Source: Escherichia coli (GTDB lineage Bacteria > Pseudomonadota > Gammaproteobacteria > Enterobacterales > Enterobacteriaceae). From it: a stretch of 64,000 bases of DNA. The stretch is taken from the NCBI RefSeq assembly GCF_044647545.1, contig NZ_CP172818.1. The stretch is one strand, 5' to 3'. A program made the translations under genes and the position numbers. Each line of letters starts with the position of its first letter. Position 1 is the stretch's first letter. Below the pieces are notes generated by a model. That model was not told the origin of the DNA and made no database searches. It worked only from the letters and a program-made list of their open reading frames with translations. This document shows positions 4,449 through 59,734 of this stretch, piece by piece.

Positions 4449-4678
4449 TCCACACCAGAGCTTTGACGACACCACTCGTTTCAATGGGGGAATTCAGTGG
4501 CATGGTGTAAAGCACAGCAAAATTGCCAATAACGAAACCGATTTTAATGTACTTATCAAAAAGCGGTCACGTTAATCTTTTCATCAATGTCGATTTCTTC
4601 GTAAAGGCTCGCGTTTTTTATGTCAGAGATTGCAAGTTGCTTGTACAGGTCAACTAAATTGATCCATAATTATTTCCG

Positions 4679-4697
4679 TTGGAATCGTGTGCTGCAC
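4679..4697 (+). repeat. 19-nt direct repeat, copy 2 (TTGGAATCGTGTGCTGCAC)
   Basis: 18 of 19 identical to copy at 4430..4448. Confidence 0.6.
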
Positions 4698-4717
4698 AAA
4701 ATTAAAGTTGTAAAGTG

Positions 4718-4750
4718 AAAACCCCCGTTCCTTACCAGTTCGGGGGTTTT
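4718..4750. terminator. Bidirectional stem-loop between shoB/ohsC region and acpS
   Basis: 10-bp perfect stem AAAACCCCCG / CGGGGGTTTT with 13-nt loop, T-rich flanks on both strands; 26 nt past acpS stop. Confidence 0.55.
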
Positions 4751-4775
4751 ACTTTATAAAGAGAACGGTATTTTT

Positions 4776-6638: not shown

Positions 6639-8251
<1,613 letters not shown>

Positions 8252-8450
8252 TCAGCACACGAAACAGACCTGATATACATGGTTCTGCTAACTGCTTCGC
8301 TGCAGTTTCAGTTTACCGGTATATGGGGACCAACGCTGTTTCGTGTGCCGTGGCAACCTGGAGGTGCCAACCTTAAACTTCGGGGGAATATTCTATACAC
8401 AACGACGGGGGATGTCGTTAGCCACGGGAGATTTATCTCATAAATAATTC

Positions 8451-9483: not shown

Positions 9484-11283
<1,800 letters not shown>

Positions 11284-11480
11284 AAAGTATGATTATTGTG
11301 CCTTAATGCCCGGTTAACCAGGCTTTTAGAAGTCGCTGTTCTGAGCTTAACGTCTGTATTAATAGAAACGCCGCATTCTACACTACAACATTGAGGCGAG
11401 GAAATGTTCATACCGTATGGATTGTGGTATCTGGAAACGTCCTCGCATTTGTTATGCAAAATGCAACAAAGCCAGTGAAA

Positions 11481-11960
11481 TCACTGGCTCGCGTCTTCCG
11501 AAGATGTTTCAAATCGCACAAGGCCAGGCGGCAATGCCACGCTTAAGATGATCGGTTGCCATTCAGACCGGGCAGCAAACTTTCGAGAGCAGCCACGTGC
11601 AATCAGGAATCCACCAACGCCACCGAGAATCGCACCGCATAATGCTGCAATATCTGAAGCAAAGAGTAGCTGAAATAGTGAAGCGATGAGGAATAGTCCC
11701 ACCAACGGCGACATATAAACCAGTAATGCGGAGCTAAGCAGGCTGCCTTCGGCGATTCCTAATTCTACTTTTTGCCCCGGCACTAACGGTTCTTCACAGG
11801 GTACGACAATGGTATGCGTGGTTTGCGGGCCAAGTTTATTCAACACGCGGCTACCGCAACCGGCGCGCGAAGCGCAGCTGCTGCATGAGGCTTTAACATC
11901 ACAACTAACCAGCGCCTGCCCGTTTTCCCAGGAGACGACGGTAGCCCACTCTTTGATCAT
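11481..11960 (-). CDS. rseC: Sigma-E regulatory protein RseC
   Basis: Track ORF 159 aa; last gene of the rpoE-rseABC cluster; 4-bp overlap with rseB. Confidence 0.85.
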   Translation of the reverse strand: MIKEWATVVSWENGQALVSCDVKASCSSCASRAGCGSRVLNKLGPQTTHTIVVPCEEPLVPGQKVELGIAEGSLLSSALLVYMSPLVGLFLIASLFQLLFASDIAALCGAILGGVGGFLIARGCSRKFAARSEWQPIILSVALPPGLVRFETSSEDASQ

Positions 11961-12913
11961 TGCGCTGCCCCGAACTTAATATTCTCGGCAATGCGTTTCG
12001 CCGTTTGCGGCGGCAGTTCACCGACAATGGTGATTTCGGCGTTATCACGTACGCTTGTACTGACGGTTCTGCGTCCGGTGCGCAACATCTGATCGGTGCT
12101 CGATGGCGTAGCGCGGTTAACGTTTACCGAGAAGCTGAATAATCCGTCGGAATAGAGACGTGATTCAATAGGCATGTTGTCCATCGTCGGTAGCGGACGT
12201 CGACTACTGGAAACTTCGCTAAAACCCTGTGGCAACCAGGTTGGCGTCCAGCTGAATTTAGCTTTTTCACCTACAGGAACAGAAAGCAACGGCGGCAAAT
12301 TTGCCTTCGCCAGCGTCTGCATACTGCTGCTGATATCCTGATTGACATTAAAAGCAATCACGCGAAATTGTTCCAGCGTTTCACCATCGCGATCAAGGAG
12401 ATCAACCCTCATCGGTAATTTCGATTCGGTGTCCATCCACACGATGTAGCTGTAGCGTGTACCATCTCGGGCAACCACGCGAATAACTTCGCAAAGACGA
12501 TCAGCAATACGCGTGCGCCCGACGGAGATAAAGTCGTAGTAAGGAGAAAGGCGTTTGAAATCGGTATAGATGAGCGATGGCAGAGAATCAACAATGTAAT
12601 CGCCATTAAGCGTGAACGGTTCAAGTCCCGGTTCAAAATAGCTGATCTCATTGCCGCGCTGTACCACTTCCCGGCGCGGGCCATCCATTTGCAACAATTG
12701 TGCAAGAGGACGGTTATCGAGGCGTGCATGTCGATAACGCAGAGACTCAACACCCTGTTTATTGATGCTGATGAATGACAGCTCGTAATTCAGTGACTGA
12801 CTGGCCAGGTTCATCTGCTGTAATAACGCCCCGGACGCGGGAGTGGCCGAGGCGTTAGCAGAGAATAACAGGCTACCTGTCACTAATGACATGGCAAACC
12901 AAAGTTGCTTCAT
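11957..12913 (-). CDS. rseB: Sigma-E regulatory protein RseB (periplasmic)
   Basis: Track ORF 318 aa with N-terminal signal peptide. Confidence 0.88.
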   Translation of the reverse strand: MKQLWFAMSLVTGSLLFSANASATPASGALLQQMNLASQSLNYELSFISINKQGVESLRYRHARLDNRPLAQLLQMDGPRREVVQRGNEISYFEPGLEPFTLNGDYIVDSLPSLIYTDFKRLSPYYDFISVGRTRIADRLCEVIRVVARDGTRYSYIVWMDTESKLPMRVDLLDRDGETLEQFRVIAFNVNQDISSSMQTLAKANLPPLLSVPVGEKAKFSWTPTWLPQGFSEVSSSRRPLPTMDNMPIESRLYSDGLFSFSVNVNRATPSSTDQMLRTGRRTVSTSVRDNAEITIVGELPPQTAKRIAENIKFGAAQ

Positions 12914-17054: not shown

Positions 17055-18404
17055 ATGACTGTAACGACTTTTTCCGAACTTGAACTCGACGAAAGCCTGC
17101 TGGAAGCCCTCCAGGATAAAGGTTTCACTCGCCCGACCGCCATTCAGGCTGCCGCCATTCCGCCTGCGCTCGATGGCCGTGATGTACTCGGTTCTGCGCC
17201 GACAGGCACCGGTAAAACGGCGGCGTATCTGCTGCCAGCGTTGCAGCACCTGCTCGATTTCCCACGTAAGAAATCCGGTCCGCCGCGTATTTTGATCCTT
17301 ACCCCAACTCGCGAGCTGGCGATGCAGGTGGCCGATCATGCCCGCGAACTGGCGAAACATACGCATCTGGATATTGCCACCATCACCGGCGGCGTGGCCT
17401 ATATGAACCACGCAGAAGTGTTCAGCGAAAACCAGGACATTGTGGTCGCCACGACCGGACGTCTGCTGCAATACATAAAAGAAGAGAACTTCGATTGCCG
17501 CGCGGTTGAAACGCTGATCCTCGACGAAGCAGACCGTATGCTGGATATGGGCTTCGCTCAGGATATCGAACATATTGCTGGCGAAACGCGCTGGCGTAAA
17601 CAGACCCTGCTCTTTTCGGCAACGCTGGAAGGCGATGCGATTCAGGACTTTGCCGAGCGTCTGCTGGAAGATCCGGTGGAGGTTTCTGCCAATCCGTCCA
17701 CCCGTGAGCGCAAAAAAATTCATCAGTGGTATTACCGCGCCGATGACCTGGAACATAAAACCGCATTGCTGGTGCACCTGTTAAAACAGCCGGAAGCGAC
17801 CCGCTCAATTGTGTTTGTGCGTAAGCGTGAGCGTGTGCATGAGCTGGCAAACTGGCTGCGCGAAGCGGGCATCAACAACTGCTATCTCGAAGGTGAGATG
17901 GTACAGGGCAAGCGTAACGAAGCGATCAAGCGTTTGACCGAAGGTCGCGTAAACGTACTGGTTGCAACCGATGTTGCCGCGCGCGGTATCGACATTCCTG
18001 ACGTCAGCCACGTCTTTAACTTCGATATGCCGCGCAGTGGCGATACTTATTTGCACCGTATCGGACGTACCGCGCGCGCCGGTCGTAAAGGCACCGCAAT
18101 TTCGCTGGTAGAAGCCCATGACCATCTGCTGCTGGGCAAAGTTGGTCGCTATATTGAAGAGCCAATTAAAGCTCGTGTAATTGATGAGTTACGCCCGAAA
18201 ACGCGTGCGCCAAGCGAGAAGCAGACCGGCAAGCCATCGAAGAAAGTACTGGCAAAACGCGCCGAGAAGAAAAAAGCTAAAGAGAAAGAGAAGCCGCGGG
18301 TGAAAAAACGCCATCGCGACACCAAAAATATTGGTAAGCGCCGTAAACCGAGCGGAACGGGCGTGCCACCGCAAACGACAGAAGAGTATCAATGCCGGGT
18401 TTAA
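17055..18404 (+). CDS. srmB: DEAD-box ATP-dependent RNA helicase SrmB
   Basis: Track ORF 449 aa; motifs [20 protein letters not shown]; lysine-rich C-terminal tail. Confidence 0.93.
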
Positions 18405-30047: not shown

Positions 30048-30167
30048 ATGCCTGGCAGTTCCCTACTCTCGCATGGGGAGACCCCACACTACCATCGGCG
30101 CTACGGCGTTTCACTTCTGAGTTCGGCATGGGGTCAGGTGGGACCACCGCGCTAAGGCCGCCAGGCA
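30048..30167 (-). rRNA. rrfG: 5S ribosomal RNA
   Basis: Exactly 120 nt; reverse complement begins TGCCTGGCGGC and ends CAGGCAT. Confidence 0.97.
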
Positions 30168-30259
30168 AATTCTGTTTCATCAGACCGCTTCTGCGTTCTG
30201 ATTTAATCTGTATCAGGCTGAAAATCTTCTCTCTTCCGCCAAAACATCTTCGGCGTTGT

Positions 30260-33163
<2,904 letters not shown>

Positions 33164-33356
33164 TCACAACCCGAAGATGTTTCTTTCGACTCATCATCGT
33201 GTTGCGAAAATTTGAGAGACTCACGAACAACTTTCGTTGTTCAGTGTTTCAATTTTCAGCTTGATCCAGATTTTTAAAGAGCAAATATCTCAAACATCAC
33301 CCGAAGATGAGCTTTGAGATATTAAGGCAGGTGACTTTCACTCACAAACCAGCAAG

Positions 33357-33432
33357 TGGCGTCCCCTAGGGGATTCGAACCCCTGTTACCGCCGTGAAAG
33401 GGCGGTGTCCTGGGCCTCTAGACGAAGGGGAC
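33357..33432 (-). tRNA. gltW: tRNA-Glu (anticodon UUC) in the 16S-23S spacer
   Basis: 76 nt; reverse complement reads GTCCCCTTCGTCTAGAGGCCCAGGACACCGCCCTTTCACGGCGGTAACAGGGGTTCGAATCCCCTAGGGGACGCCA. Confidence 0.97.
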
Positions 33433-33507
33433 GTGTCGCAAGACGCCTTGCTTTTCACTTTCTATCAGACAATCTGTGTGAGCACTTCAAAGTACGCTTC
33501 TTTAAGG

Positions 33508-35049
<1,542 letters not shown>

Positions 35050-35492: not shown

Positions 35493-38066
35493 TTACTGGA
35501 CGGCGACAATCCGGTCTTCATTAACTTCCAGGCGAATCACTTTACCCGGAACCAATTCACCAGACAGTATTTGCTGTGCCAGCGGGTTTTCGATCTGCTG
35601 CTGAATTGCACGTTTCAGAGGACGTGCACCATAGACCGGATCGTAACCGTTCTCGCTCAGCAGTTTCAGCGCCTCGTCAGAAATGTGGATTTCATAACCA
35701 CGTTCTTCCAGACGTTTATACAGACGTTTCAACTGAATCTGCGCAATCGACGCAATGTGCTGTTCACCCAGCGGATGGAAGACCACCACTTCATCGATAC
35801 GGTTAATGAATTCCGGACGGAAGTTATGGCTTACCACACCGAGCACCAGCTCTTTCATGTGCGCATAATCCAGTTCACCGAAGCGTTCCTGAATCAAATC
35901 GGAACCGAGGTTAGAGGTCATAATGACAACCGTATTACGGAAGTCGACCGTTCTCCCCTGCCCGTCAGTCAGACGCCCATCATCCAATACCTGCAACAGA
36001 ATGTTGAAGACATCCGGATGCGCTTTTTCCACTTCATCCAGCAGGATGACGGAATACGGACGACGACGCACCGCTTCGGTCAGGTAGCCACCTTCTTCAT
36101 AACCGACATATCCCGGAGGCGCACCAACCAGACGAGACACCGAGTGTTTCTCCATAAACTCGGACATATCGATACGGACCATCGCCTCGTCGCTATCAAA
36201 CATAAAGTTCGCCAGCGCCTTACAAAGCTCAGTTTTCCCCACACCCGTTGGGCCGAGGAACAGGAATGAACCAATCGGGCGATTTGGATCCGCCAGCCCC
36301 GCACGGCTACGACGAATAGCGTTAGATACCGCATCAACCGCTTCGTTCTGACCAATAACGCGATGGTGCAGTTCTTGCTCCATACGCAGCAGTTTTTCGC
36401 GCTCGCTTTCCATCATGCGAGAAACCGGAATCCCCGTCCAACGCGCCAGCACTTCAGCAATTTCGGCATCGGTCACTTTATTACGCAACAGACGCATAGT
36501 TTTGCCTTCGAGCTGCGTTGCGGCTTCCAGTTGCTTTTCCAGTTCCGGGATTTTGCCGTATTGCAGTTCAGACATCCGCGCCAGGTCACCCACACGGCGA
36601 GCCTGTTCAATAGCGATTTTCGCCTGTTCCAGTTCCGCTTTAATGGTCTGCGTACCAGAAAGCGATGCTTTCTCTGCTTTCCACTCTTCTTCTAACTCGG
36701 AGTACTGACGTTCTTTGTCGCTCAGTTCTTCGTTGAGCATATCCAGACGTTTTTTACTGGCTTCATCAGACTCTTTCATTAACGCCTGTTGTTCCAGTTT
36801 GAGCTGGATGATACGGCGATCGAGTCGGTCGAGTTCTTCTGGTTTTGAGTCAATCTGCATACGAATGCTGGATGCTGCCTCATCGATCAGGTCGATGGCT
36901 TTATCTGGCAGCTGGCGGTCAGCAATGTAGCGATGAGACAACGTCGCCGCTGCAACAATTGCCGGGTCAGTAATTTGCACATGGTGGTGCAGCTCGTAAC
37001 GTTCTTTCAGGCCACGTAGAATCGCAATGGTATCTTCAACAGAAGGCTCGGCAACAAACACTTTCTGGAAACGACGTTCCAGCGCAGCATCTTTTTCGAT
37101 GTACTGGCGATATTCGTCAAGCGTCGTGGCACCTACGCAGTGCAATTCACCACGCGCCAGCGCCGGTTTCAGCATGTTTCCGGCGTCCATTGCGCCATCG
37201 GCTTTACCCGCGCCGACCATGGTATGTAATTCGTCGATAAACAGGATGACGTTGCCTTCCTGTTTGGCAAGATCGTTAAGTACGCCTTTTAAACGTTCTT
37301 CAAACTCACCGCGATATTTCGCCCCAGCCACCAGCGCGCCCATATCCAGCGCCAGTACGCGGCGGCCTTTCAACCCTTCGGGCACTTCGCCGTTGATAAT
37401 ACGCTGCGCCAGACCTTCAACGATGGCAGTCTTACCGACGCCTGGTTCACCAATCAGTACCGGGTTATTTTTAGTACGACGTTGCAGCACCTGAATGGTA
37501 CGGCGAATTTCTTCATCACGACCAATCACCGGATCGAGTTTACCCTGTTCGGCTCGTTCGGTAAGGTCGATGGTATATTTTTTCAAAGCCTGACGTTGGT
37601 CTTCAGCACCTTGATCGTTCACGCTTTCACCTCCACGCATTTGTTCAATCGCTTGAGTAATGTTGGCGGTGGTCGCCCCTGCTGCTTTCAGGATGTCGGC
37701 CAGCGTGCCGCGAGACTCAAGTGCCGCCAGAACGAACAGTTCTGACGAGATAAAGTTATCACCACGTTTTTGCGCCAGCTTGTCGCAAAGATTAAGAACG
37801 CGCACCAGATCCTGTGATGGCTGGACATCACCACCAGTACCTTCAACCTGCGGTAAACGATTTAATGCCTGATTGATATCTGTGCGCAACTGGCCAGCAT
37901 TTATGCCAGCGGATGTTAATAAAGGACTAACCGAACCCCCTTCCTGATTCAGCAGGGCGCTCATTAAATGAAGTGGTTCGATGAATTGGTTGTCGTGCCC
38001 GAGTGCAAGTGATTGGGCATCGGCAAGAGCAAGCTGGAATTTATTAGTAAGACGATCCAGACGCAT
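35493..38066 (-). CDS. clpB: Chaperone ClpB (Hsp100 disaggregase, two AAA+ modules)
   Basis: Track ORF 35493..38078; ATG at 38066 with GGAGG upstream gives 857 aa starting [14 protein letters not shown]; Walker A GEPGVGKT and GPTGVGKT. Confidence 0.95.
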
Positions 38067-38105
38067 AACTCCTCCCATAACGGATCAAAGTTGCTACTGG
38101 AGATT

Positions 38106-38133
38106 AAATGAGGTCATCCCTCAATTATTCAAG
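38106..38133 (-). promoter_or_regulatory. Sigma-32 (heat-shock) type promoter for clpB
   Basis: Minus strand CTTGAA, 13-nt spacer, CCTCATTT; resembles sigma-32 consensus CTTGAAA / CCCCATNT. Confidence 0.5.
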
Positions 38134-38195
38134 GTTATTGACCAGATTAATGTGAAAAGAAAATCACGCGTACCGGATCGTCTTGATTCTTTAGG

Positions 38196-40992: not shown

Positions 40993-41388
<396 letters not shown>

Positions 41389-41412
41389 TCCTTTATATTG
41401 AGTGTATCGCCA

Positions 41413-41436
41413 ACGCGCCTTCGGGCGCGTTTTTTG
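41413..41436 (+). terminator. Rho-independent terminator after raiA
   Basis: Stem ACGCGCC / GGCGCGT with TTCG loop followed by TTTTTT. Confidence 0.7.
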
Positions 41437-41491
41437 TTGACAGCGTGAAAACAGTACGGGTACTGTACTAAAGTCACTTAAGGAAACAAAC

Positions 41492-41539
41492 ATGAAACAC
41501 ACACCGTTTTTCTTCGCATTCTTTTTTACCTTCCCCTGA
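41492..41539 (+). CDS. pheL: pheA leader peptide (Phe-rich, 15 aa)
   Basis: Hand translation gives MKHTPFFFAFFFTFP then stop; seven Phe codons; absent from ORF track. Confidence 0.9.
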   Translation: MKHTPFFFAFFFTFP

Positions 41540-41585
41540 ATGGGAGGCGTTTCGTCGTGTGAAACAGAATGCGAAGACGAACAAT

Positions 41586-41615
41586 AAGGCCTCCCAAATC
41601 GGGGGGCCTTTTTTA
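41586..41615 (+). promoter_or_regulatory. pheA attenuator terminator hairpin
   Basis: Stem GGCCTCCC / GGGGGGCC (one G-U pair) followed by TTTTTTT, between pheL and pheA. Confidence 0.75.
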
Positions 41616-41637
41616 TTGATAACAAAAAGGCAACACT

Positions 41638-42798
41638 ATGACATCGGAAAACCCGTTACTGGCGCTGCGAGAGAAAATCAGCGCGCTGGATGAAAAATTA
41701 TTAGCATTACTGGCAGAGCGACGCGAACTGGCCGTCGAGGTGGGAAAAGCCAAACTGCTCTCGCATCGCCCGGTACGTGATATTGATCGTGAACGCGATT
41801 TGCTGGAAAGATTAATTACGCTCGGTAAAGCGCACCATCTGGACGCCCATTACATTACTCGCCTGTTCCAGCTCATCATTGAAGATTCCGTATTAACTCA
41901 GCAGGCTTTGCTCCAGCAACATCTCAATAAAATTAATCCGCACTCAGCACGCATCGCTTTTCTCGGCCCCAAAGGTTCTTATTCCCATCTTGCGGCGCGC
42001 CAGTATGCTGCCCGTCACTTTGAGCAATTCATTGAAAGTGGCTGCGCCAAATTTGCCGATATTTTTAATCAGGTGGAAACCGGCCAGGCCGACTATGCCG
42101 TCGTACCGATTGAAAATACCAGCTCCGGTGCCATAAATGACGTTTACGATCTGCTGCAACATACCAGTTTGTCGATTGTTGGCGAGATGACGTTAACTAT
42201 CGACCATTGTTTGTTGGTCTCCGGCACTACTGATTTATCCACCATCAATACGGTCTACAGCCATCCGCAGCCATTCCAGCAATGCAGCAAATTCCTTAAT
42301 CGTTATCCGCAATGGAAGATTGAATATACCGAAAGTACGTCTGCGGCAATGGAAAAGGTTGCACAGGCAAAATCACCGCATGTTGCTGCGTTGGGAAGCG
42401 AAGCTGGCGGCACTTTGTACGGTTTGCAGGTACTGGAGCGTATTGAAGCGAATCAGCGACAAAACTTCACCCGATTTGTGGTGTTGGCACGTAAAGCCAT
42501 TAACGTGTCTGACCAGGTTCCAGCGAAAACGACGTTGTTAATGGCGACCGGGCAACAAGCTGGTGCGCTGGTTGAAGCGTTGCTGGTACTGCGCAACCAC
42601 AATCTGATTATGACCCGTCTGGAGTCACGCCCGATTCACGGTAATCCATGGGAAGAGATGTTTTATCTGGATATTCAGGCCAATCTTGAATCAGCGGAAA
42701 TGCAAAAAGCATTGAAAGAGTTAGGGGACATCACCCGTTCGATGAAGGTATTGGGCTGTTACCCAAGTGAGAACGTAGTGCCTGTTGATCCAACCTGA
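41638..42798 (+). CDS. pheA: Bifunctional chorismate mutase / prephenate dehydratase
   Basis: Track ORF 386 aa. Confidence 0.95.
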
Positions 42799-42804
42799 TG
42801 AAAA

Positions 42805-42835
42805 GGTGCCGGATGATGTGAATCACCCGGCACTG
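42805..42835. terminator. Bidirectional stem-loop between pheA and tyrA
   Basis: Stem GTGCCGG / CCGGCAC enclosing a shorter GTGA/TCAC stem. Confidence 0.5.
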
Positions 42836-42840
42836 GATTA

Positions 42841-43962
42841 TTAGTGACGGTTGTCATTCGCCTGACGCAATAACACGCGGCTTTCACTCTGAAAACGCTG
42901 TGCGTAATCGCCGAACCAGTGCTCCACCTTGCGGAAACTGTCAATAAACGCCTGCTTATCGCCCTGCTCCAGCAACTCAATCGCCTCGCCGAAACGCTTA
43001 TAGTAACGTTTGATTAACGCCAGATTACGCTCTGACGACATAATAATGTCGGCATAAAGCTGCGGATCCTGAGCAAACAGTCGCCCAACCATCGCCAGTT
43101 CAAGGCGGTAAATCGGCGAAGAGAGCGCCAGAAGTTGCTCAAGCTGAACATTTTCTTCTGCCAGGTGCAGCCCATAAGCAAAAGTAGCAAAGTGGCGCAG
43201 AGCCTGAATAAACGCCATATTCTGATCGTGCTCGACAGCGCTAATACGATGCAGCCGAGCGCCCCAGACCTGAATTTGCTCCAGAAACCATTGGTATGCT
43301 TCCGGCTTACGTCCATCACACCAGACCACAACTTGCTTTGCCAGGCTACCGCTGTCCGGGCCGAACATCGGGTGTACCCCCAGCACCGGACCATCATGCG
43401 CCGCCAGCATGGCCTGTAATGGTCCATTTTTCACCGATGCCAGATCGACCAGAATACAATCTTTCGGTAAAGGCGGTAATTTGCCGATAACTTGCTCAGT
43501 AACGTGGATTGGCACACTAACAATCACCATTCCGGCATCGGCAACAATATCAGCCGCTCGATCCCAGTCATGTTGCTCCAGAATCCGCACCTGATAACCC
43601 GATAGTGTCAGCATCTTCTCGAACAGGCGTCCCATCTGACCGCCACCGCCGACGATAACCACCGGACGCAGTGACGGACAAAGCGTTTTAAATCCTTTGT
43701 CGTTTTCACTGGAGTAAGATTCACGCATCACCCGACGCAAAACATCCTCAATCAGATCTGGCGGTACACCCAGAGCTTCCGCCTCTGCACGCCGCGAGGC
43801 CAGCATAGATGCCTCGCGCTCCGGAACATAAATAGGCAGTCCAAAGCGGCTTTTCACCTCGCCAACTTCAGCAACCAGTTCCAGACGCTTCGCTAATAAA
43901 TTCAGCAGCGCTTTATCGACTTCATCAATTTGATCGCGTAATGCGGTCAATTCAGCAACCAT
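42841..43962 (-). CDS. tyrA: Bifunctional chorismate mutase / prephenate dehydrogenase
   Basis: Track ORF 373 aa; NAD-binding GGGGQMG. Confidence 0.95.
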
Positions 43963-43972
43963 AATAAACCTC

Positions 43973-45043
43973 TTAAGCCACGCGAGCCGTCAGCTGCCCG
44001 TTCAGATCCTGATGAATTTCACGCAGCAAGGCATCGGTCATTTCCCAACTAATGCAGGCATCGGTGACGGATACACCGTATTTCATTTCACTGCGCGGTT
44101 GCTCGGAAGACTGATTGCCCTCGTGGATATTACTTTCAATCATCAGACCAATAATTGAGCGATTGCCATCTTTGATTTGAGCAACCACGGATTCTGCCAC
44201 CGCAGGCTGACGGCGATAATCTTTATTGGAATTACCGTGGCTGCAATCTACCATCAGAGACGGGCGCAGTCCCGCCTGTTCCATCTCTTTTTCACATTGC
44301 GCAACATCCGCAGGGCTATAGTTCGGCGCTTTACCACCGCGCAGGATCACATGCCCGTCCGGATTCCCCTGAGTTTGTAGCAACGCCACCTGCCCTGCCT
44401 GGTTAATGCCAACAAAACGGTGCGGCTGGGCGGCGGCACGCATAGCGTTAATAGCCGTTGCAAGGCTGCCGTCGGTGCCGTTTTTAAAACCAACCGGCAT
44501 GGAAAGCCCGGAGGCCATTTCACGGTGTGTTTGCGATTCCGTTGTACGAGCACCAATTGCTGACCAGCTAAACAGATCGCCCAGGTATTGCGGGCTATTC
44601 GGATCTAACGCTTCCGTCGCCAGTGGCAGTCCCATATTCACCAGCTCAAGCAGCAATTTACGCGCGATCTGCAGCCCGGCTTCTACATCAAAAGAGCCAT
44701 CCATATGGGGATCGTTAATCAACCCTTTCCAACCGACAGTGGTACGGGGTTTTTCAAAATAGACGCGCATTACCAGATAGAGGCTATCGCTGACCTCTGC
44801 GGCAAGGGCTTTAAATCGACGAGCATATTCCAGAGCAGTTTCCGGATCATGAATGGAACAAGGACCACAGACTACCAACAGACGAGGATCGCGCCCGGCG
44901 ATAATATCTGAAATGGTTTTACGCGAGTCAGCAATCTGGGCTTCCTGTTGCAGGCTTAATGGAAAAGCGGCCTTCAGTTGTTCCGGAGTCATTAAAACTT
45001 GTTCGTCGGTAATATGTACGTTATTCAGCGCGTCTTTTTGCAT
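43973..45043 (-). CDS. aroF: Tyr-sensitive DAHP synthase
   Basis: Track ORF 43973..45112; product starting [15 protein letters not shown] gives 356 aa. Confidence 0.93.
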
Positions 45044-45137
45044 GATGGCGATCCTGTTTATGCTCGTTTGCGATAGTTGATCCTCAGCGAGGATGACGTA
45101 ACGATAACACATAAAGTAAAGTTTTCAATCCATATTT

Positions 45138-59371: not shown

Positions 59372-59734
59372 GGGGCTGATTCTGGATTCGACGGGATTTG
59401 CGAAACCCAAGGTGCATGCCGAGGGGCGGTTGGCCTCGTAAAAAGCCGCAAAAAATAGTCGCAAACGACGAAAACTACGCTTTAGCAGCTTAATAACCTG
59501 CTTAGAGCCCTCTCTCCCTAGCCTCCGCTCTTAGGACGGGGATCAAGAGAGGTCAAACCCAAAAGAGATCGCGTGGAAGCCCTGCCTGGGGTTGAAGCGT
59601 TAAAACTTAATCAGGCTAGTTTGTTAGTGGCGTGTCCGTCCGCAGCTGGCAAGCGAATGTAAAGACTGACTAAGCATGTAGTACCGAGGACGTAGGAATT
59701 TCGGACGCGGGTTCAACTCCCGCCAGCTCCACCA
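59372..59734 (+). ncRNA. ssrA: Transfer-messenger RNA (tmRNA)
   Basis: 363 nt from GGGGCTGATTCTGGATTCGACGGG to GGGTTCAACTCCCGCCAGCTCCACCA; internal frame GCAAACGACGAAAACTACGCTTTAGCAGCTTAA encodes tag ANDENYALAA; TATACT -10-like hexamer upstream. Confidence 0.97.

What the first reader, a model, noticed from the sequence alone, without database searches (positions are those of the whole stretch)
41492..41616. pheL leader peptide and attenuator missed by the ORF track
A 15-codon ORF with seven Phe codons is followed by a GC-rich hairpin and T-run before pheA. This is the classic Phe-sensing transcription attenuator.
Basis: partly seen in the sequence, partly recalled or inferred. Interest (0 to 1): 0.25.

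Follow-up and report, generated by a model that had tools for sequence, protein, structure and literature searches.

The report
Known E. coli pheL–pheA attenuator
This is the textbook phenylalanine-sensing leader peptide and transcription attenuator in front of the E. coli pheA gene; it is real and correctly interpreted, but it is already annotated and experimentally characterised.

Summary
Window 41492-41539 encodes MKHTPFFFAFFFTFP* (15 codons, 7 Phe). A 10-bp GC-rich hairpin (41586-41610) and a T-run follow it, 22 nt before pheA (41638-42798). Rfam Phe_leader (RF01859) matches 41491-41616 end to end at 132.2 bits against a gathering score of 55. The stretch is 100% identical to many complete E. 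coli genomes, where RefSeq annotates 'pheL', 'Phe leader region' and 'pheA'. It differs from K-12 MG1655 at 1 of 272 bases (41502, Thr4 in place of Ile4), which lies outside every stem. With a ribosome masked on the Phe codons, segment 2 (41532-41551) pairs with segment 3 (41586-41606) and removes the terminator. With no ribosome, or one at the stop codon, the terminator forms. Fifty-one non-redundant leaders from across Enterobacterales keep all three helices, with compensatory changes in 1:2 and 3:4. The element was 'missed by the ORF track' only because it is 15 codons long. There is nothing new here, so interest is low.

The parts
41437..41442 (+). -35 hexamer TTGACA of the pheL-pheA promoter (inferred)
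   Evidence: 6/6 match to consensus. TTGACA is present at the same place in 46 of 51 orthologous upstream regions. It directly abuts the T-run of the raiA terminator (41412-41431). The simple promoter scan did not call it because the -10 hexamer has only 3/6 matches.
41461..41466 (+). -10 hexamer TACTGT (inferred; 18-nt spacer; TSS expected near 41472-41474)
   Evidence: TAnnnT is kept as TACTGT/TACTTT in most orthologs. Its function as a promoter and the TSS position are inferred, not shown here.
41480..41484 (+). Shine-Dalgarno AAGGA of pheL
   Evidence: It lies 7 nt before the ATG. The consensus is nAGGAA in the 51-sequence alignment.
41492..41539 (+). pheL leader peptide ORF, MKHTPFFFAFFFTFP*
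   Evidence: Translation. Annotated as pheL (WP_001386991.1) at the identical sequence in NZ_AP018808.1.
41507..41533 (+). Regulatory codons: 7 Phe codons among 9 (FFFAFFFTF)
   Evidence: FFFAFFFTFP* was recovered in 116 unique leaders upstream of pheA in Enterobacterales, but the search pattern itself required FAFFFTFP*.
41534..41539 (+). CCC_TGA 'shifty stop' ending pheL
   Evidence: Sequence. The +1 frame stays open to the TGA at 41691-41693. Frameshifting here is documented and judged incidental (PMC3082878; also PMC5373646).
41506..41582 (+). 1:2 hairpin (pause/'protector' structure): 41506-41535 pairs with 41542-41582
   Evidence: MFE gives 28 pairs and -31.2 kcal/mol in isolation. 94-99% of cells are paired across 51 orthologs, with an AU<->UA compensatory change in 7 sequences. 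It is part of the Rfam consensus structure. A NusA-sensitive pause at pheL is reported in PMC9291695.
41532..41606 (+). 2:3 antiterminator: 41532-41551 pairs with 41586-41606 (core GGGAGGC 41543-41549 with GCCTCCC 41589-41595)
   Evidence: It forms when the ribosome footprint covers segment 1. Energy is -36.6 kcal/mol. The seg2:seg3 duplex is -31.2 against -10.3 +/- 3.0 for shuffled segment 2 (0/1000), and none of 12,796 20-mers from the window binds as well. 87.8% of cells are paired in orthologs against 41-53% when partners are slid.
41586..41617 (+). 3:4 intrinsic terminator (attenuator): stem 41586-41595/41601-41610, then T-run
   Evidence: -18.5 kcal/mol. Compensatory changes at two pairs (AU<->GC in 20 sequences, CG<->UA in 6).
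41638..42798 (+). pheA, the regulated gene (chorismate mutase/prephenate dehydratase)
   Evidence: NF007910 equivalog at 823.6 bits, full length. Annotated pheA in the RefSeq genome.

Best explanation
This is the pheL leader peptide gene and ribosome-mediated transcription attenuator of the E. coli pheA operon. Transcription starts about 20 nt upstream of pheL. RNA polymerase transcribes segments 1 and 2, which fold into a long hairpin (41506-41582) that also acts as a pause signal. A ribosome then begins translating pheL. When charged tRNA-Phe is plentiful, the ribosome runs through the seven Phe codons to the UGA stop. There it covers the GGGAGGC core of segment 2, so segment 3 pairs with segment 4 and forms the terminator (41586-41610 plus U-run). 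Transcription then ends before pheA. When charged tRNA-Phe is scarce, the ribosome stalls in 41507-41533. This holds segment 1 open and leaves segment 2 free, so segment 2 pairs with segment 3 as soon as segment 3 emerges. The terminator cannot form and polymerase reads on into pheA. Shown here: all the sequence parts, their order, the mutually exclusive pairings, their conservation, and identity with the characterised K-12 locus. Taken from the literature or inferred: the in vivo response to Phe, the pause, and the promoter and TSS.
For: Rfam RF01859 Phe_leader matches full length (1-125/125) at 132.2 bits against a gathering score of 55, E = 1.5e-23. A 321-nt stretch is 100% identical to many E. 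coli chromosomes annotated 'pheL / Phe leader region / pheA', and a match is found in 5425 of 5426 genomes. The leader is 271/272 identical to K-12 MG1655 pheL (b2598)-pheA (b2599). Peptide and codons. Constraint folding: with no ribosome the RNA forms 1:2 plus the terminator (-52.2 kcal/mol). A ribosome at Phe codons 1-4 gives the 2:3 antiterminator with no terminator. A ribosome at the stop codon gives the terminator. On transcripts ending before segment 4, stalls at six of the seven Phe codons tested directly or bracketed (A-site 41507-41525) put 41587-41595 in pairs with 41542-41550, whereas a ribosome at the last Phe codon or at the stop leaves them free. Helix energies and the specificity of seg2:seg3 are. 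Across 51 leaders under 90% identical to one another, from many genera, 95% of 1:2/3:4 cells are paired against 45-59% when slid, and 33 cells carry double changes (0/500 shuffles reach this). For 2:3, 87.8% are paired against 41-53% when slid. The downstream gene is the pheA equivalog. The mechanism for K-12 and Salmonella is described in PMC3082878 (Fig. 1 legend; 6-7-fold derepression in a pheR tRNA-Phe mutant), and the pause in PMC9291695.
Against: Nothing contradicts it. There are four limits. (1) The 2:3 core is almost invariant, so covariation can neither prove nor disprove it (8 double-change cells, reached by 65/500 shuffles). Its support is conservation of pairing plus energetics. 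(2) At equilibrium on the full-length leader, stalls at Phe codons 5-7 still give the terminator as MFE. Antitermination there depends on co-transcriptional order, which is modelled only crudely, with an assumed +15-nt footprint. (3) The consensus promoter scan found no site because the -10 is weak, so the promoter is inferred from conservation. (4) In PMC9291695 the compensatory mutant of the pause hairpin did not restore pausing, so the pause role of 1:2 is not fully settled.
Confidence: 0.97

Rival explanations
1. Coincidence: a chance Phe-rich mini-ORF lies next to an ordinary intrinsic terminator or insulator between raiA and pheA, with no coupling between translation and termination.
For: Stop-free 15-codon windows with at least 7 Phe codons do arise by chance. 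One sits at 18263-18310(-), antisense inside a 449-aa ORF, and 3% of simulated windows have one.
Against: raiA already has its own terminator at 41412-41431. The ORF has an ATG, an SD and a stop positioned over segment 2. The peptide, the three helices and the promoter are conserved across genera upstream of pheA. The Rfam match is 77 bits above threshold. The seg2:seg3 complementarity is unmatched by 1000 shuffles.
Confidence: 0.005
2. The main product is functional in its own right. Either the PheL peptide or the +1 frameshift product made at CCC_UGA (about 50 extra codons, ending at 41693 inside pheA) has a function or tunes pheA expression.
For: CCC_TGA is kept, and the +1 frame is open to 41693. 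Frameshifting of 15% or more at this site is reported in K-12 (PMC3082878; PMC5373646 S6 Fig legend).
Against: PMC3082878 found that the +1 peptide is not conserved in length or sequence. It also found that tRNA-Pro mutants changing frameshifting up to 14.5-fold did not change pheA-lacZ expression in Salmonella, and concluded the shift is incidental. PMC5373646 saw no extended products with the RF2-B variant, which suggests a K-12 RF2 peculiarity.
Confidence: 0.02
3. The terminated leader transcript (about 140 nt) additionally acts in trans as a small RNA, as reported for attenuator-derived trpL RNAs. The trpL comparison is from my own knowledge and was not checked here.
For: The leader is a very stable, abundant-by-design terminated RNA (z = -5.6). 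Its non-coding part is extremely conserved (GGGAGGC is invariant in 51/51).
Against: No target and no data were examined here. The conservation is fully explained by the cis-acting switch.
Confidence: 0.03

Closest known systems
E. coli K-12 pheL (b2598) - pheA (b2599) leader/attenuator; Rfam RF01859 Phe_leader
   Same: Same locus and synteny (rluD-bamD-raiA-pheL-pheA-tyrA-aroF). 271/272 nt identical across raiA terminator, promoter, leader and the start of pheA. Identical stems, terminator, CCC_UGA ending and spacing.
   Different: One base: 41502 is C where K-12 has T, so codon 4 is ACA (Thr) instead of ATA (Ile). It lies 5' of the Phe run and outside all helices. The window's form gives an exact 71-nt match in 3560 of 5422 complete E. 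coli genomes, so K-12 carries the less common form.
Group A ('CCC_UGA') pheL genes of Enterobacteria (Gurvich et al. 2011, PMC3082878)
   Same: A conserved nucleotide sequence ending UUC_CCC_UGA, a run of Phe codons, a pause hairpin, an antiterminator and a terminator. The window is a typical member.
   Different: None of substance. The N-terminal four residues vary freely between genera.
trpL, hisL, leuL, thrL, ilvL ribosome-mediated attenuators
   Same: The same logic: a leader peptide rich in the cognate amino acid, segments 1-4 with alternative 1:2/3:4 and 2:3 pairings, and an RNAP pause that synchronises ribosome and polymerase.
   Different: Different regulatory codons and unrelated sequences. 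pheL has an unusually long and stable 1:2 hairpin, classed as 'hyperstable' in PMC9291695.
pheM leader of pheST (phenylalanyl-tRNA synthetase operon)
   Same: Also a Phe-codon-rich leader peptide attenuator in E. coli (mentioned in PMC9291695).
   Different: A different locus and a different downstream operon. It is not in this window, and its pause is reported as not hairpin/NusA dependent (PMC9291695).

Membership tests
Phe_leader (Rfam RF01859) / pheL-pheA ribosome-mediated attenuator | Covariance-model score at or above the curated gathering score, over the full model | tested here: met
   132.2 bits against 55, model positions 1-125/125, window 41491-41616 +.
Phe_leader (Rfam RF01859) / pheL-pheA ribosome-mediated attenuator | Short translatable leader ORF (SD, start, stop) with a run of Phe codons | tested here: met
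   AAGGA-7 nt-ATG; 15 codons, 7 Phe; TGA stop.
Phe_leader (Rfam RF01859) / pheL-pheA ribosome-mediated attenuator | Intrinsic terminator (GC-rich hairpin plus U-run) between the leader ORF and the structural gene | tested here: met
   41586-41610, 10 bp with 7 G-C, then TTTTATT; 22 nt before the pheA ATG. Compensatory changes in orthologs.
Phe_leader (Rfam RF01859) / pheL-pheA ribosome-mediated attenuator | Antiterminator (2:3) mutually exclusive with the terminator | tested here: met
   41532-41551 with 41586-41606 uses the terminator's 5' arm. Energy -36.6 kcal/mol. 0/1000 shuffles match the duplex energy. Pairing is kept in 87.8% of ortholog cells. Covariation is uninformative because the core is invariant.
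Phe_leader (Rfam RF01859) / pheL-pheA ribosome-mediated attenuator | Regulatory codons lie in segment 1, so that a stalled ribosome frees segment 2, while a ribosome at the stop codon covers it | tested here: met
   Masking simulations, both at equilibrium and on truncated transcripts. The footprint size is assumed.
Phe_leader (Rfam RF01859) / pheL-pheA ribosome-mediated attenuator | The downstream gene is the Phe-branch enzyme pheA | tested here: met
   NF007910 equivalog at 823.6 bits against 577. RefSeq annotation.
Phe_leader (Rfam RF01859) / pheL-pheA ribosome-mediated attenuator | Orthology with the experimentally studied K-12 element | tested here: met
   271/272 identity and the same gene neighbourhood.
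Phe_leader (Rfam RF01859) / pheL-pheA ribosome-mediated attenuator | pheA transcription rises when charged tRNA-Phe is limiting | not testable with these tools
   Reported for K-12 and Salmonella in the literature (PMC3082878 introduction and Fig. 7 text). Not measured for this allele.

The most novel reading that the evidence does not exclude
The most novel reading still open has two parts. First, the Thr4 (ACA) allele, which replaces K-12's rare AUA Ile codon, might measurably change ribosome loading or timing on pheL. That would shift the basal read-through of the attenuator, so the K-12 textbook numbers would not represent most E. coli. Second, the terminated leader RNA might moonlight as a trans-acting sRNA. 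Neither idea was tested here, and neither has any positive evidence.
Probability: 0.04. Interest if true: 0.3.

Novelty: already known. Interest (0 to 1): 0.05.

Why it matters
It matters mainly as a quality check. The first-stage reader recognised a real regulatory element of 125 nt from raw sequence, with correct coordinates and the correct mechanism, and an ORF-length filter had hidden the 15-codon gene. Biologically it is the standard Phe-sensing switch that sets pheA expression. It is relevant to aromatic amino-acid strain engineering, where the leader is routinely removed, but it offers no new biology.

Tried and rejected
(1) The consensus sigma-70 scan of 41000-42000 found no promoter. 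I rejected this as evidence of absence, because the -35 is perfect and the -10 (TACTGT) has only 3/6 matches, below the scan's 4/6 rule. Conservation across orthologs supports both hexamers.

(2) The reverse-strand Phe_leader hit (41492-41597, 32.7 bits, below the gathering score) comes from the near-palindromic 1:2 stem. It is not a second element.

(3) The other sub-threshold Rfam hits in 41380-41700 (Arrc14, STnc130, ctRNA_p42d, anti-hemB, BTnc231, sok; all far below gathering) are terminator-hairpin look-alikes.

(4) The second Phe-rich 15-codon window, at 18263-18310(-), lies antisense inside a long ORF and has no start codon, so it is chance.

(5) Covariation as proof of the 2:3 helix was inconclusive, because the core never varies. 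I relied on pairing retention, slide controls and duplex energetics instead.

(6) Equilibrium folding with stalls at Phe codons 5-7 gave the terminator. Folding truncated transcripts resolved this.

(7) L065, a MAG labelled Faecalicatena, matched the DNA pattern but has no pheL start and no pheA, so I excluded it.

(8) The leader peptide (15 aa) is too short for the protein-family tools, so none were run on it.

Full report
**1. What is in the sequence**

Window 41492-41539 (+) reads ATG AAA CAC ACA CCG TTT TTC TTC GCA TTC TTT TTT ACC TTC CCC TGA. This translates to MKHTPFFFAFFFTFP*, 15 sense codons of which seven are Phe. AAGGA sits 7 nt upstream of the ATG.

Downstream, AAGGCCTCCC-AAATC-GGGGGGCCTT (41586-41610; 10 pairs, 7 G-C) is followed by TTTTATT. 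It is the best terminator-like site in 41000-42000, where 7 sites were found against 1.1 expected. A 386-aa ORF starts at 41638. It matches the NCBIfam equivalog for bifunctional chorismate mutase/prephenate dehydratase (PheA) over its full length, at 823.6 bits against a cutoff of 577.

The ORF does not appear in a 20-aa-minimum ORF list. That is the only sense in which it was 'missed'.

**2. Is it more than chance?**

- A stop-free 15-codon stretch with at least 7 Phe codons occurred in 3 of 100 Markov-1 simulated 64-kb windows.
- The real window has one other such stretch, at 18263-18310(-). It lies antisense inside a 449-aa ORF and lacks a start codon, so it serves as a useful negative control.
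- The leader RNA folds at -52.2 kcal/mol against -32.2 +/- 3.6 for dinucleotide shuffles (z = -5.6, 0 of 200 as good).
- Rfam's Phe_leader model (RF01859) matches 41491-41616 end to end at 132.2 bits against a gathering score of 55 (E = 1.5e-23 for the whole window).

**3. Identity with annotated genomes**

A 321-nt stretch (41380-41700) is found in 5425 of 5426 complete E. coli genomes, always on the chromosome. It is 100% identical in many of them. There RefSeq annotates 'raiA', 'Phe leader region', 'pheL: pheA operon leader peptide PheL' and 'pheA' under the match.

In NZ_AP018808.1 the neighbourhood is yfiH-rluD-bamD-raiA-pheL-pheA-tyrA-aroF. This is the same order as in K-12 MG1655, b2593-b2601, and in the window's ORFs.

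Against K-12, the 272 nt from the raiA stop to the start of pheA differ at one base, 41502 C for T. This makes codon 4 ACA (Thr) rather than ATA (Ile). The base lies 5' of the Phe run and outside every helix. The window's exact 71-nt pheL sequence occurs in 3560 of 5422 genomes. K-12-lineage strains (C600, H10407) fall in the one-mismatch band, so the window carries the commoner form. That band could also hold other single differences.

**4.

Without a ribosome, the leader forms two structures:
- a long 1:2 hairpin, 41506-41535 paired with 41542-41582, 28 pairs;
- the 3:4 terminator, 41587-41595 paired with 41601-41609.

I then masked the RNA from the 5' end to 15 nt past the A-site codon, as a crude ribosome footprint.

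- Stall at Phe codons 1-4: the minimum-energy fold drops the terminator. It forms a 2:3 antiterminator instead, 41532-41539 with 41599-41606 and 41541-41551 with 41586-41596, over a small inner stem.
- Ribosome at the stop codon: segment 2 is covered and the terminator forms.
- Stall at Phe codons 5-7: equilibrium folding of the full leader still gave the terminator. On transcripts that end before segment 4 has emerged (RNA to 41598 or 41603), stalls with the A-site anywhere from 41507 to 41525 put 41587-41595 into pairs with 41542-41550. A ribosome at the last Phe codon or at the stop leaves them free for segment 4. This is the order-of-synthesis logic of the classical model.

Isolated helix energies are -31.2 (1:2), -36.6 (2:3) and -18.5 kcal/mol (3:4). 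The seg2:seg3 duplex (-31.2) is unmatched by 1000 shuffles of segment 2 (-10.3 +/- 3.0) or by any of 12,796 20-mers sampled from the window. The stated refutation condition, 'no alternative pairing', is therefore not met.

**5. Comparative evidence**

- 116 unique leaders came from Citrobacter, Enterobacter, Klebsiella, Serratia, Pantoea, Erwinia, Yersinia, Rahnella and others. Almost all are followed within about 100-250 nt by a PheA-like ORF beginning MT.ENPLL.LR.KISALD.
- 51 sequences under 90% identical to one another were aligned.
- On the 1:2 plus 3:4 structure, 95.0% of cells are standard pairs, against 45-59% when partners are slid by 1-3 columns. Thirty-three cells carry changes on both sides: AU<->UA in the middle of 1:2, and AU<->GC and CG<->UA in the terminator. 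None of 500 shuffles reaches the observed count of such cells, the percentage paired or the covariation score.
- On the 2:3 structure, 87.8% of cells pair, against 41-53% when slid. The GGGAGGC:GCCTCCC core is almost invariant, so covariation is uninformative (8 double-change cells, reached by 65/500 shuffles). Where the 3' partner changes C to U, a G-U pair is kept.
- GGGAGGC, which is non-coding, is invariant in 51/51 sequences.
- Caveat: the search pattern fixed the last nine codons of pheL, so conservation there is by construction. Everything downstream of the stop codon and upstream of codon 8 was free to vary.

**6. Promoter (inferred)**

TTGACA (41437-41442) immediately follows the T-run of the raiA terminator (41412-41431). 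TACTGT (41461-41466) lies 18 nt further on. The consensus scan did not report a promoter because the -10 has 3/6 matches. TTGACA is present in 46 of 51 orthologous upstream regions, and TACTKT is conserved with it. A start near 41472-41474 would give a terminated leader of about 140 nt. This part is inference.

**7. What the literature says**

Gurvich et al. (PMC3082878) describe exactly this arrangement.
- pheL translation controls attenuation of pheA.
- 1:2 is a pause structure, 3:4 the attenuator and 2:3 the antiterminator.
- The basal level with abundant Phe is about 10% of the starved level.
- Derepression is 6-7-fold in a pheR (tRNA-Phe gene) mutant.
- They note that pheL is often unannotated because it is so short.
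- Enterobacterial pheL genes form a conserved group ending UUC_CCC_UGA, where +1 frameshifting reaches 15% in K-12 but does not affect pheA expression.

The window keeps that ending, and the +1 frame is open to the TGA at 41691-41693 inside pheA. Baggett et al. (PMC5373646) link the extended PheL products to the weak K-12 RF2 variant. A 2022 study (PMC9291695) measured a NusA-enhanced pause at pheL (half-life 16.7 s, about 1.9-fold longer with NusA) and equates the hairpin with the 'protector' 1:2 structure. Its compensatory mutant did not restore pausing, however.

**8. Verdict**

The element is a full member of the known family. Every defining feature testable in silico was met, and only the in vivo response could not be tested. 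It is already known and already annotated at this exact sequence.

The only differences from the K-12 reference are a common Thr/Ile polymorphism at codon 4 and the trivial fact that a length filter hid the ORF. Interest is low. The residual novel readings (an allele effect on basal read-through, or a trans-acting role for the leader RNA) have no positive evidence.

Noticed in passing
window 41274-41435 (+), by transfer from K-12 b4805 (L002 2382-2543): The K-12 annotation places the small RNA RaiZ over the 3' end of raiA, ending at the raiA terminator (41412-41431). The terminator's T-run runs straight into the pheL -35 hexamer (41437-41442). This terminator-promoter junction (GGGCGCGTTTTTT-A/G-TTGACA) is conserved in most Enterobacterales orthologs.
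   Followed up: partly
window 41534-41539 and 41538-41693 (+): pheL ends in the +1 shift-prone CCC_TGA(A). The +1 frame is open for about 51 codons, to a TGA at 41691-41693 inside pheA. Frameshifting here is documented as incidental (PMC3082878) and dependent on the RF2 variant (PMC5373646).
   Followed up: partly
window 41502: Codon 4 of pheL is ACA (Thr) where K-12 has the rare ATA (Ile). The window's exact 71-nt sequence is in 3560 of 5422 complete E. coli genomes. E. albertii (L004) and one other species (L100) also encode MKHTP. The K-12 form appears to be the minority.
   Followed up: partly
window 41492-41597 (-): A sub-threshold reverse-strand match to Phe_leader (32.7 bits against 55), caused by the near-palindromic 1:2 stem. 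It is an artefact rather than an antisense element.
   Followed up: yes
window 18263-18310 (-): This is the only other stop-free 15-codon stretch with at least 7 Phe codons ([16 protein letters not shown]). It lies antisense inside the 449-aa ORF 17055..18404(+), with no ATG, no terminator and no downstream gene, so it is chance.
   Followed up: yes
window 42806-42833: pheA (stop at 42798) and tyrA (stop at 42841, minus strand) converge with a 42-nt gap. The gap holds a 12-bp hairpin that scores as a terminator for the tyrA strand. It may be a shared or bidirectional terminator.
   Followed up: no
window 43973-45112 (-): The mechanical ORF for aroF (379 aa) starts upstream of the annotated 356-aa AroF (K-12 aroF is 1071 nt). 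The extra 23 codons (MCYRYVILAEDQLSQTSINRIAI) are probably 5' UTR or operator sequence, not coding.
   Followed up: no
(E. coli genomes): The 321-nt query gave 5580 places in 5425 genomes, with some genomes having two. The 71-nt pheL-only query gave exactly one place per genome. A flanking piece (raiA 3' end/terminator or pheA 5' end) must therefore be repeated in about 155 genomes. The cause was not examined.
   Followed up: no
window 4678-4755, 8167-8381, 11165-11996, 30050-35049, 38047-38185, 59372-59734: Other Rfam matches above gathering score: ohsC, rncO, AsrC (antisense to rseC), a complete rrn operon (5S, 23S, spacer tRNA, 16S, with StyR-44 in the spacer), RyfD and tmRNA. All are expected for this part of the E. 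coli chromosome.
   Followed up: no
L065 4277-4431 (MAG labelled Faecalicatena sp.): This contig contains the pheL 3' pattern but has no upstream start/Phe run and no pheA downstream. It is either a chance match or a mis-binned contig, and it was excluded from the alignment.
   Followed up: no
L004, L011, L014, L020, L025 and other ortholog loci: In many genera a long ORF is open from within the pheL-pheA leader (starting MRRRT... or MGGVSSC...) and runs in frame into pheA. This agrees with the PheL-PheA fusion potential that PMC3082878 noted for Klebsiella and E. sakazakii.
   Followed up: no
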